Part shown: positions 18,001-21,000 of the stretch, piece after piece
Position numbering within the stretch: position 1 is the stretch's first letter
Layout of the letters: each line of letters starts with the position of its first letter
Assembly: GCA_963842945.1 (NCBI GenBank)
Contig: CAWJIM010000023.1
Coordinates: 448,001-512,000, forward strand
Source: an uncultured Gemmatimonadales bacterium
GTDB taxonomy: Bacteria > Gemmatimonadota > Gemmatimonadetes > Gemmatimonadales > GWC2-71-9
DNA: 64,000 nt
Reading direction: 5' to 3'
Made by a program: the position numbers

Positions 18001-21000
18001 CGGTGGTTCGCGGACTGAGTGCGGGGGACGTGCGCCGAACCGGAGCGCAGATCATCCTGGGCAATACCTATCATCTGCACCTTCGGCCGGGCGAGGCCGT
18101 CGTGCAGGCCATGGGCGGACTCCACCGCTTCACCACCTGGAGCGGCCCGATGCTGACCGACTCGGGCGGATTCCAGGTGTTTTCGCTGGAGGGACTTCGG
18201 CGGATCGAAGAGCACGGCGTCGAATTTCAGAGCCACATTGACGGCACCCTCAGGATGCTTACGCCCGAGCGGGTCATGGAGATCCAGTGGCAGCTCGGGG
18301 CCGATGTGGCCATGGCGTTCGACCACGTGGTTCCAGGGCAAGCTTCGTTCGAAGTCGCCTGCGAAGGCATGGAGCGGACCTTACGCTGGCTCGACCGGTG
18401 CAAGTCAAAGCATGTGGAGTTGGCGGGGCAGCGGGGCAGCGGGACGGCGGGGCAGTTTGGGCAGGCGAGTAACTCGCACGCAGGATTGGATTCCTCTGCC
18501 CTGCTGCCCCCCGGCCCCGCTGCCCCACAGACCCTCTGGCCCATCATTCAGGGCGGCGTGCACGAGCAGCTTCGGCTGCGTTCGCTGGAAGGCACTCTGG
18601 AGCGAGGTCCCTGGACCGGTGTGGCGATCGGAGGGCTGTCGGTAGGTGAGCCGAAGCCGGTGCTGCACCACGTGCTTGAGCTGCTTCATCCAGCGCTGCC
18701 GGTAGGAGTACCCCGTTATCTTATGGGCGTCGGCTTCCCGCCGGATCTGCTGGAGGGAATCGCTCGAGGCATCGACCTGTTTGACTGCGTGGCAGCCACC
18801 CGGAACGGCCGCCATGGCACCGCCTGGCTGGAGACCGGCCGGCTCAACGTGAAGGGCGCGGCTCTCAAGGGATCAGTGGAGCCGCTCGATCCTGCCTGCG
18901 ATTGCGAGACCTGCACCACCTACCCGCGCGGATATTTGCGGCACCTGTTCGTGGTGGAGGACATTCTGGCCCTGCGGCTGATCTCGATCCACAACATCCG
19001 CTTCCTGGTGCGATTGGGTGAACAGGCCCGAGCCCATATCCTGGACGGCACCTTCGACCGGTGGAGCCGCGAGTGGCTCGGCCGCTACTACGCTGGGAGG
19101 AACACCTGATGTTACAGACCGGGTCCGGCAGCGGACTTTCCGTCCTCGTCCTTCAGATGGCAGCTATCGGTCTGGTGTTCTACTTCCTGATCCTGCGTCC
19201 GTCGGGACAGGCCCGAAAGCGCCACGCCGAGCTGCTGACCAAGCTCAAGAAGGGCGACGAGGTAATGACCAGCGGAGGGATCATTGGCCGGGTTCGGGAG
19301 ATCAAGGAGATCGAGGCGGACGGCCTCAAGGAAGTGCGGGTGACGGTCGAGAGCGGCACCGCAACCGTTGTGGTGGAGCGGTCGCGCATCGTCCGGGTGG
19401 GCAACAGCGCGGCTGCCGCAGGGCCGGCCGCGTGAGTCTGCGGCAACTGCACCTCCTCGGCTCACCGGTGCTGCGGCAGCATAGCGAGATCGTGCCGTCG
19501 ATAGATGAGGACGTACGCCGCCTTATTGCCGATATGTTCGAGACCATGGATGCCGCCAAGGGCATCGGACTGGCGGCCAATCAGGTCGGTGTCGCCCGCC
19601 GAGTGGCGGTGGTGGACGTAGACGATGATCGGTTCGTCATGGTGAATCCCCGCATTGTGGAGACCGAGGGGCGGGCATCCGCCGAGGAGGGCTGCCTCTC
19701 GATTCCGGAGATTTATGGCGATGTCACCCGGCCGGACCGGGTGGTGGTCGAGGCGCTGGACGACGAGGGACGGCCCTACCGGAAGGAAGCCACCGGGCTG
19801 AAGGCCCGAGCCATTCAGCATGAGATCGACCATCTGGATGGGATCCTCTTTCTCGACCACCTGAGTTTGGTGAGGCGGCAAATGCTGCTCGCCAAGTGGC
19901 GACGCGAGCACAAGGACGACGCGGGATTCACGAAGGAGGTCACCGGAGCGTCTCTCCGGTCGGAGTGATGCGGATCGTCTTCTTTGGGACGCCGGAGTTT
20001 GCCCTGGCATCCCTCCGGGCGCTGCTCCAGAGCCGCTTCGAGGTCGCCGGTGTGGTCACCCAACCTGACAAGCCCCAGGGACGCTCCCGTTCTGAGCTCG
20101 TACCCCCTCCCGTGAAAGTTGTAGCACAATCCGAAGGCCTTCCCGTGCTGCAACCGGTTCGGCCGACGGGCGATGTTTTTACCGCCAGTCTTCGCCGGCT
20201 GGAGCCTGAGCTCGGCGTCGTGGTCGCGTATGGTCATATCCTCCGACCCGAGATCCTGGCCCTACCGCCGCGAGGGATGATCAACGTGCACGCCTCGCTG
20301 CTGCCTCGGTTCCGAGGAGCAGCTCCGGTGCAGCACGCCATCTTGAAAGGGGAGACCGAGACCGGGGTCAGTATCATGCAAATGGAGGCAGGCCTCGACA
20401 GTGGTCCCGTCCTGCACCACGTCGGCGCTGCGATTGAACCCGGTGAGACCGCGGGCTCGCTTTCCGTCCGCTTGGCCGACCTCGGAGCCACGGCGCTGAT
20501 CGAAGCCTTGTCCCTGATGTCCGCTGGCCTTGCCCGTCCACAGCCACAGGATCCCACCCGCGCGACGTTCGCGCCGAAAATTGACCGGGACATGGCCCGG
20601 CTCTCCTGGGCCATGGACGCGACGACGCTGGTGCGCCAGATTCGCGCCTTCGACCCGGCACCCGGAGCTTGGACATCGCTGAATGGGTGCTCCCTCAAGT
20701 TGTTTGGCGCGCGCGAGGGGCCAGGAACCGGAGAGCCTGGAACCGTTCTCGCAGCGGGAGAACGGCTCGTGGTTGCGGCCGGACGGGGAGCCGTGGCGGT
20801 GCAGGAGGTTCAGCCTGCTGGGCGGGGCCGGCTTGCAGTGGATGCCTGGGTCCGGGGCCGTGGAGTGTCACCGGGCCAGCGTCTCGAATGAGACCATTGC
20901 CGCGGGTGCATGCCTACACTAACGCCGAGTTGCTGTCCCACCCCGATTTGGGCATCCGGGCGGCGGCCATCGCAGCCGGCGGATCGGCTGTGGCCTTGCA

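What a model noticed while it worked through the whole genome (the two positions that open the first line are those of the whole stretch)
18423..18524. Repeat hairpins inserted in frame into tgt and mutS
The same inverted octamer arrays also lie inside conserved housekeeping genes and are translated. In tgt (g04178) a whole element, (GCGGGGCA)4 - 41 nt - (TGCCCCGC)4, adds 81 nt (27 codons) in frame inside the TGT domain; the closest relative (91-95% identical protein) lacks it and has only the short seeds GGCGGGGG and TGCTGCCCC at that place. In mutS (g02739, C19:529097-529303) the two arms sit in two variable stretches 137 nt apart and flank a conserved piece of the connector domain; three species share this state with different copy numbers.
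Evidence so far: tgt: the pair lies at codons 177-210 inside the TGT domain; Swiss-Prot TGTs align 398 residues of g04178 to 363 of theirs. Of 12 genus relatives with a match, 11 give two adjoining matches (query 1-~180 and ~211-402, a few nt apart in their DNA where both were listed), i.e. no insert; one (G209) matches over the full length. DNA alignment with G210, G207, G201, G204 shows the 81-nt gain and its borders. mutS: arms translate to GSGAVGQRGS and APLPRCPAAPL on either side of LVGVAYVDLSTGEFVLE; alignment with 10 genus relatives shows arrays at both sites in G000, G210 (87% id.) and G207 (74% id.), and shorter, repeat-free sequence in 7 others (one more covers only the start). A third case lies in [...]
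(Added by a program. Inside this text positions count along the whole contig: contig position 448,001 is position 1 of the stretch shown here. "Call 12" and the like, gene names such as g00115 and contig names such as C1 are that model's own, and its searches are not shown. The text may have been shortened before it was handed on; [...] marks where a part breaks off. The agent that wrote the report below was given it as the finding of a first reader that could run no searches.)

Follow-up and report, generated by a model that had tools for sequence, protein, structure and literature searches.

The report
Repeat hairpins marking swappable gene segments
In a group of soil bacteria, pairs of mirror-image short repeats sit at fixed spots, even inside core genes, and the DNA between them, sometimes a whole protein domain, is repeatedly replaced or rewritten between close species, pointing to an undescribed way of reshuffling gene pieces.

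Summary
The hairpin in tgt is real: 18423-18526, in frame, fold z -5.4, one of about 100 polar arm pairs in this Gemmatimonadales genome. It is not a recent gain. A relative nested among the short-allele species keeps a related full element, so the short alleles are most likely collapses. The same tgt slot holds 7-, 8- or 9-base arm families with unrelated spacers in other species. In mutS and mutS2 the arms bracket a conserved domain. Between sister species about 90% identical, arms and enclosed domain change together, falling to 53-64% identity. The mutS2 domain tree rejects the species tree (AU p 0.003, 0.0001), and enclosed codons lose the genome's GC3 bias. Four-helix-bundle (PF05635) cassettes turn over in fixed slots the same way. 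Best reading: the arms delimit blocks that are episodically replaced by diverged orthologous alleles, or collapse. The enzyme is unknown, no close donor was found, and local hypermutation is a live rival. Paired tandem arrays and in-frame repeats are in print (Geobacter, Nostoc, Rickettsia), and this scan found the class before on other DNA. I found no description of the block replacement.

The parts
17892..19109 (+). tgt, tRNA-guanine transglycosylase, intact; the only match in G000
   Evidence: (427 bits, cut-off 306.75); D91, D145, Q221, D299, C337/C339/C342, H368 invariant in 11 insert-bearing Tgts (their catalytic and zinc-binding roles are recalled)
18423..18455 (+). left (G-rich) arm, about 4 units of GCGGGGCA, read as [11 protein letters not shown]
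18456..18495 (+). spacer, unique in G000; weakly related to the spacer of G092 only
18496..18526 (+). right (C-rich) arm, about 4 units of CTGCCCCG, read as [10 protein letters not shown]
16296..17342 (+). queA, intact, same queuosine pathway
17356..17892 (+). DinB/YfiT-like gene between queA and tgt (below the curated cut-off)
19109..19435 (+). yajC
10265..10327 (.). second arm pair in the window, 7-base family (AACGGTG / ACCGTTT), apparently intergenic
58740..58801 (.). third arm pair in the window, 7-base family (GGTAAAC / ACCGTTT), apparently intergenic

Best explanation
Paired inverted tandem arrays (about four units of 7-9 bases, G-rich arm first) mark fixed chromosomal slots. Each slot can fold its content out as a stem-loop. 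Now and then the whole block, arms plus content, is replaced by the diverged orthologous block of another lineage, with crossovers at the outer edge of the arms, or it collapses by deletion to one arm or to the outermost units. Selection keeps only blocks that preserve frame and protein, so in genes they survive in loops, linkers and ends, and in mutS, mutS2 and PDH E2 they enclose a working domain. The tgt element is one such slot, full in G000 and collapsed in several close kin. SHOWN: slot conservation, concerted change of both arms, episodic sharp-edged divergence of the content, tree conflict in mutS2, loss of GC3 inside arms, the same turnover at four-helix-bundle cassettes. INFERRED: that the source is foreign DNA, that the fold-back triggers the event (cleavage and repair from a foreign template) or shields it from mismatch repair, and any role of the four-helix-bundle or GxxExxY proteins.
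For: (1) Sisters G024/G008 are 84-98% identical in all 42-codon windows of mutS, mutS2 and tgt away from the arms, but 61-65% in the mutS core and 43-55% across the mutS2 SH3 block; G035/G057 behave alike. (2) Episodic, not steady: of 22 mutS pairs with flank identity 0.84 or more, 4 keep the core at 0.84-0.91, 3 arm-less pairs are at 0.76-0.79 and 15 are at 0.62-0.73 (pairs share lineages). In mutS2, G060/G023, G018/G040, G017/G041 and G043/G041 show no excess, while G000/G065 (flanks 0.93) share only 18 of 37 synonymous codons inside against 246 of 298 outside, p 1.5e-5. (3) The SH3 block groups by arm type across clades: (G024,G059,G035,G060) 99/97. AU rejects (G024,G008), p 0.003, and G035 with its six kin, p 0.0001. 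(4) Both arms switch unit together, even from 8 to 9 bases. Own arms pair better than swapped arms in 16 of 16 chosen pairs, and better than arms of the other locus of the same genome in 30 of 42. (5) Breakpoints fall within about 10 nt of the outer arm edge, or inside the outer unit, in the pairs read by eye. (6) At the C20 four-helix-bundle slot four close kin carry cassettes 89, 74, 61 and 57% identical to G000 between flanks of 85-94%; at the C2 slot 85 and 66%, and two kin are collapsed. (7) A+T at fourfold sites is 33% inside against 16% outside in mutS with arms, and 6% against 7% without arms. The two lowest of 1760 GC3 windows in 134 kb of G024 are the mutS core and the mutS2 SH3.
Against: AU does not reject (G000,G065), (G000,G065,G081) or the four-genome clade (p 0.25, 0.37, 0.051), and the tested groups were named after a first SH3 tree had been seen. 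G000/G065 keep the same protein type with scrambled synonymous sites, which in-place mutation explains equally well. Divergent tracts also occur without arms: of 12 coding dips in 120 kb of G024/G008 coding DNA, 8 have no arms, and three of the four with arms lie in loci that I chose. All arm-less controls belong to one high-GC3 clade, and arm-bearing members of that clade (G020, G056, G036) show little or no GC3 drop. mutS and mutS2 have other AT3 peaks away from the arms. The mutS core tree is mostly unresolved. No enzyme is identified.
Confidence: 0.55

Rival explanations
1. In-place hypermutation. The looped-out DNA mutates in bursts (single-strand damage or error-prone repair), the arms are kept complementary by template switching, and the protein is held by selection. 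No transfer is needed.
For: Symmetric rise of A and T at fourfold sites inside arms. Same protein type with excess synonymous change in G000/G065/G081. The tgt spacers of G000 and G092 are related but only about 72% alike between 90% flanks, with the unit changed in both arms. No close donors.
Against: It does not explain SH3 types shared across distant clades or the AU rejections, switches of period from 8 to 9 bases, or jumps to 50-60% identity that leave the protein and the four-helix-bundle ORFs intact. It may well act together with transfer.
Confidence: 0.25
2. Ordinary homologous recombination plus selection. Arrays grow by slippage in tolerant loops, foreign tracts arrive anywhere, and only tracts that carry both arms are kept because unpaired arms are harmful. 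The arms do nothing active.
For: Arm-less divergent coding tracts exist at about 2% of coding DNA. Homeologous microdiversity blocks are common in bacteria (PMC2884548, passages). In G000/G017 identity runs about 30 nt past the right arm.
Against: Sharp borders at the arms in several independent pairs. All four arm-bracketed coding segments in the G024/G008 sample are dips. Single unpaired arms are common and tolerated. The GC3 drop is not predicted.
Confidence: 0.13
3. RPE- or MITE-like insertion. A mobile hairpin inserts whole at short seed sites, and G000 gained one in tgt.
For: In-frame location in loops. The short alleles resemble a target. Some slots are empty in kin (L209), so new slots must arise somehow.
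Against: Spacers are unique. The content can be a conserved host domain. The full tgt element is nested among short alleles. The one Y1 transposase gene is not flanked by these arrays.
Confidence: 0.05
4. Assembly artefact.
For: G000 shows frameshifts in some genes.
Against: Dozens of independent assemblies show the slot, 51 of 53 tgt alleles are in frame, and an independent run holds the spacer and right arm.
Confidence: 0.01

Closest known systems
Geobacter metallireducens multicopy elements Gmet_I1-I3 and Gmet_H4 (PMC2700814; passages and supplement legends read; supplement figures not seen)
   Same: Four tandem 8-base (or 3-5 tandem 7-9-base) units, paired on opposite strands at variable distance; the heptamer class also lies inside genes; a different sequence occupies the same gap in a sister species.
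   Different: Read there as regulator binding sites. The passages seen report no enclosed protein domain, no exchange of content and no link to four-helix-bundle genes.
Nostoc trnL-intron P6b stem-loop, Class I and II heptamer motifs (PMC4476775; passages)
   Same: One fixed slot whose complementary repeat arms are replaced as a whole, repeatedly and independently.
   Different: A single non-coding intron loop with two classes; that study detected no recombination in trnL. Here there are about 100 slots, many unit families and coding cargo.
Rickettsia palindromic elements (as reviewed in PMC10969869, passages) and intragenic REPs (PMC3733652, passages)
   Same: Hairpin repeats translated in frame inside housekeeping, replication and repair genes.
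   Different: RPEs are whole copied elements with a conserved peptide. Here spacers are unique, arms are tandem arrays and the content can be the host's own domain.
23S rRNA intervening sequence with S23p / PF05635 (PMC4990558; passages)
   Same: A four-helix-bundle ORF inside terminal inverted repeats containing tandem heptamers.
   Different: That element lies in rRNA and is cut out by RNase III. Here the cassettes are chromosomal, most have no ORF, and no RNA processing was shown.
Movement of target-recognition domains in DNA methyltransferases (PMC3575425; abstract only)
   Same: A protein domain is exchanged within a gene by recombination.
   Different: Restriction-modification genes, with conserved direct flanking repeats (recalled). 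Here housekeeping genes and inverted arms that are themselves replaced.
Diversity-generating retroelements (recalled; Avd is a four-helix-bundle relative)
   Same: A bounded coding segment is rewritten, and a related accessory protein family is nearby in the genome.
   Different: No reverse transcriptase found in G000, no template copy, no adenine-specific signature.

Membership tests
Paired tandem 7-9-mer hairpin elements (Geobacter type) | about four tandem 7-8-base units per site | tested here: met
   arm copy number 4 in 111 of 210 arms, 3-5 in 194
Paired tandem 7-9-mer hairpin elements (Geobacter type) | pairs on opposite strands at variable distance | tested here: met
   97 G-then-C pairs against 1 reverse; gaps 1-600 nt
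Paired tandem 7-9-mer hairpin elements (Geobacter type) | found between and within genes | tested here: met
   18 of 105 pairs inside called genes, 22 with one arm in a gene, 65 intergenic (my own gene calls)
Paired tandem 7-9-mer hairpin elements (Geobacter type) | same unit sequences or common ancestry with the Geobacter families | not tested
   the consensus units quoted differ from those here; no alignment was made
RPE / MITE | multi-copy element with conserved internal sequence | tested here: not met
   1 cross-hit among all spacers of 20 nt or more, from a duplicated gene
RPE / MITE | in-frame translation in intact genes | tested here: met
RPE / MITE | target-site duplication and empty pre-insertion allele | tested here: inconclusive
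   short tgt alleles look like remnants; no systematic search for duplications
REP / REPIN / RAYT | RAYT gene flanked by the same repeats | tested here: not met
   one PF01797 gene, no arrays within 600 nt
REP / REPIN / RAYT | GTAG or CGTC tag at the end of a short palindrome | not tested
   not evident in the tgt element; no genome-wide test
rRNA intervening sequence (S23p) | PF05635 ORF between inverted arms | tested here: met
   7 of 7 PF05635 genes in G000 are bracketed: 5 by detected 7-9-mer arrays, 2 by longer units read by eye; the tgt element itself has no such ORF
rRNA intervening sequence (S23p) | located in rRNA | tested here: not met
   the tgt, mutS, mutS2 and E2 elements lie in protein genes
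rRNA intervening sequence (S23p) | excision from RNA by RNase III | not testable with these tools
   no listed RNA contig spans the insert
Diversity-generating retroelement | reverse transcriptase | tested here: not met
   0 PF00078 matches in G000, 87% complete
Diversity-generating retroelement | template repeat paired with a variable repeat | tested here: not met
   spacers have no second copy among elements; not searched against the rest of the genome
Diversity-generating retroelement | adenine-specific mutagenesis | tested here: inconclusive
   composition only: A and T rise equally

The most novel reading that the evidence does not exclude
The arms are the signals of a dedicated, widespread hairpin-delimited allele-exchange and diversification system. 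The Avd-like four-helix-bundle protein and/or the GxxExxY nuclease, whose genes ride between the same arms (7 of 7 and 3 of 3 in G000), act on any arm-bracketed DNA, including domains of MutS, MutS2 and PDH E2, and swap it across species barriers in a mutagenic, repair-exempt way.
Probability: 0.27. Interest if true: 0.92.

Novelty: new variant of a known kind. Interest (0 to 1): 0.74.

Why it matters
Short paired tandem repeats and the four-helix-bundle genes that go with them are widespread and unexplained. Because some arms enclose a conserved protein domain, the domain acts as a tracer and shows what happens between arms: sharp-edged, episodic replacement and loss of codon bias. That gives a measurable phenotype and a direct test of what the repeats and their passenger proteins do. 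It also means sub-gene blocks of core genes, including the mismatch-repair gene mutS, can carry a history different from their flanks, which matters for phylogeny and for how protein loops and domains are remodelled.

Tried and rejected
Recalled lead that 'tandem inverted repeats' are described with group 1 RAYTs: not in the two preprints checked. RAYT as the mobiliser: its gene lacks the arrays. Reverse transcriptase in cis: none found. AlphaFold model of Tgt: mean pLDDT 35, unusable, so the surface position of the insert rests on the helix-to-strand gap against solved Tgts. Donor searches: none close. No tgt slot among 75 readable of 80 further loci scores above 9 against G000's spacer. RNA evidence: no listed RNA contig crosses the insert, so splicing or cleavage is untested; three joints near 18147 and one at 18791-18925 have sides under 30 nt and were dismissed. 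G000/G017 as a donor pair: 16 of 22 against 56 of 161 synonymous sites looked strong but was the top of 210 pairs, and fell to p 0.018 with a wider window. Permutation p-values for arm pairing (0.001 or less) overstate because kin share units. A first IQ-TREE run timed out; FastTree and treekit were used. Left out of counts: G047 and G080 (unpublished); G029 and G038 in some tables (frameshifted or partial); G015 (truncated); G010 and G032 in the tgt pairing test (one-sided inserts). G000-G011 comparison: 36 sites, 26 with both flanks colinear, classified by eye; the middle of outputs 60 and 66 was cut from view. Ten paper searches and three look-ups in the scan's notes found no description of block replacement between such arms in protein genes. 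The library lacks most subscription papers, so the cyanobacterial STRR, SDR and nifJ papers (recalled) were not read.

Full report
1. Observation. The element is at 18423-18526 in tgt: a G-rich arm of about four GCGGGGCA units, a 40-nt spacer and a C-rich complementary arm. It folds far better than shuffles (z -5.37). The gene is unbroken, passes the Tgt cut-off, is the only tgt match in G000 and sits with queA and yajC. It has 36 residues where a solved bacterial Tgt has 4, between a helix and the LWPIIQG strand. The nearest named tgt records are nearly all Gemmatimonadales or Gemmatimonadota. An independent soil run holds the spacer and right arm at 91% identity, and another holds a collapsed allele as DNA.

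2. The family in this genome. A scan for 18 unit families found 455 arrays against 5 in a shuffled genome. Same-unit neighbours within 200 nt run G-rich then C-rich 97 times and the reverse once, and arms are mostly four units long. Spacers are all different except for one duplicated gene, so these are not copies of one mobile sequence. Of 105 pairs, 18 lie inside called genes although genes cover 76% of the DNA, mostly in ends, loops and linkers. In three genes the arms enclose a Pfam domain or part of one: MutS_II in mutS, the MSSS SH3 domain in mutS2, and the E3-binding domain in PDH E2. All 7 PF05635 four-helix-bundle genes and all 3 GxxExxY matches are bracketed by inverted arrays, five by detection and five by eye. 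The single Y1 transposase gene is not.

3. The tgt slot. In 53 genus genomes (from; G047 and five without a usable locus left out) 12 have a long insert, 6 a middle one and 35 a short one, and 51 are in frame. Long forms are scattered over the tips of the tree with different units and mostly unrelated spacers. Further records add 7- and 9-base families at the same codon (17 long of 75 readable, overlapping the first set). Many short forms are a lone left arm, a lone right arm or the two outermost units. Within G000's own clade (88-95% DNA identity) the tree is ((G000,G065),(G079,G081,(G048,G011,G092))). G092 has a full element with GCGGGGAA arms and a spacer weakly related to G000's, G065 shows a right arm of that unit at its contig end, G048 and G011 keep the outer units, and G079 and G081 keep almost nothing. 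The 81-nt difference is therefore more likely loss in the relatives than gain in G000. Re-acquisition by G000 of a full block is not excluded.

4. Arms change together. In mutS (28 readable genomes) and mutS2 (22, later 35) both arms switch unit together, including from period 8 to period 9, and both are missing together in part of one clade. Units differ between loci of one genome. Own arms pair better than swapped arms in 16 of 16 pairs that I chose, and better than the other locus's arm in 30 of 42 comparisons.

5. The content changes with them. This is the main new result. Sisters G024 and G008 are 84-98% identical along mutS, mutS2 and tgt but 61-65% in the mutS core and 43-55% across the SH3 block. 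The mutS core is not inherently variable: it stays at 0.84-0.91 in four arm-bearing sister pairs and 0.76-0.85 in arm-less pairs, but is 0.62-0.73 in 15 other close pairs. In mutS2 the SH3 tree groups genomes by arm type across clades, and AU tests reject two flank-tree clades (p 0.003 and 0.0001) but not three others. G079, a close relative of G000, has changed both its mutS and its mutS2 block. Borders lie at the outer arm edge or within the outer unit. Between G000 and G011, non-coding slots are shared and their content is either kept (about 9 sites) or replaced with another unit or spacer (about 9 sites; by eye). Four-helix-bundle cassettes do the same: 57-89% identity at one slot among five kin, and 66-85% or collapse at another.

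6. Composition. Enclosed codons lose the high GC3 of the genome: lower than the flanks in 16 of 20 arm-bearing mutS genes against 2 of 8 arm-less ones, with A and T rising equally. In G024 the two enclosed domains are the two lowest of 1760 windows. The control is confounded, because arm-less genes all lie in one clade in which arm-bearing genes also show little drop.

7. Controls against the reading. In 134 kb aligned between G024 and G008, 12 coding tracts fall below 72% identity and cover 2.4% of coding DNA. Four are arm-bracketed, three of them in loci I chose, and eight are not. Divergent tracts are thus enriched at arms, not exclusive to them. No close donor was found. No reverse transcriptase was found.

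8. Mechanism. The content of a slot stays the same in kind: a MutS core is replaced by a MutS core and a four-helix-bundle gene by a related one. That points to orthologous donors guided by flanking homology. The sharp borders point to the fold-back as the unit. Most likely (0.55) the stem-loop or cruciform is cut, or escapes mismatch repair, and foreign orthologous DNA is retained only between the arms, while slippage between arms gives the collapsed alleles. Escape of palindromic loops from repair is recalled from yeast work and was not confirmed in my search. Bursts of in-place mutation with arm homogenisation (0.25) explain the composition and the G000/G065 case but not the shared alleles, and both may operate. 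Ordinary recombination with selection (0.13) and whole-element insertion (0.05) fit less well.

9. Known and new. Paired four-unit arrays, some in genes, were catalogued in Geobacter (PMC2700814). Repeated replacement of a repeat hairpin at one slot is known from the Nostoc trnL intron (PMC4476775). In-frame hairpins are known from Rickettsia and from REPs (PMC10969869, PMC3733652), and heptamer-armed four-helix-bundle inserts from rRNA (PMC4990558); I saw passages of each. This scan noted the class many times on other DNA: 288 notes hold the words for arrays with four-helix-bundle genes, and others cover in-frame cases in Gemmatimonadales and a 9-mer bracket in mutS2. The elements fail the defining tests for RPE/MITE, RAYT-REP and DGR. 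I file the finding as a new variant of a known, unexplained repeat class. The replacement of enclosed host domains was not found in ten paper searches of an open-access library.

10. Verdict. Real, and more interesting than an in-frame insertion. Protein function is inferred from intact motifs and from protein identity of 90-96% against DNA identity of 88-95% among close kin, not tested. Interest 0.74.

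Noticed in passing
G000 C19:147326-147634 and C24:241773-242081: Two four-helix-bundle genes are bracketed by longer units of about 18-21 nt built on CCCGCTCACGCT rather than plain 7-9-mers.
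   Followed up: no
G000 C11:68-2140 and C21:194179-196608: The same aldehyde dehydrogenase with the same in-frame element occurs on two contigs, a likely duplicate or contamination (6% reported).
   Followed up: partly
G000 C4:99996-100560 and C23:161571-162229 (contig coordinates): Arms bracket two other small genes, one of about 103 aa and one of about 140 aa, neither identified.
   Followed up: no
L237 (G011), L256:4049 (G024), and G008 opposite L253:2992: A different REP-like hairpin family containing TCGCTTCGCTC occupies intergenic gaps, sometimes next to or in place of the arrays; possibly the partner of the Y1 transposase.
   Followed up: no
mutS loci L052, L053, L054, L058, L276: The right arm ends in a small perfect palindrome resembling the 7-mer family (read as LTTRRE), shared by genomes of different clades.
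   Followed up: no
mutS2 alignment columns 80-100 and mutS column 320: Local AT3 peaks away from any detected arms in the main clade.
   Followed up: no
L249:5780-6142, L260:5251-5823, L248:2989-3283: Arm-less coding tracts at 60-66% identity between G024 and G008, either ordinary recombination or fast-evolving genes.
   Followed up: partly
G000 C19:117791-118045, C19:448286-448522, C18:60365-60574: Some four-helix-bundle and GxxExxY genes look frameshifted or broken; decay or long-read error cannot be told apart.
   Followed up: no
window 17356-17892: A DinB/YfiT-like gene is inserted between queA and tgt.
   Followed up: no
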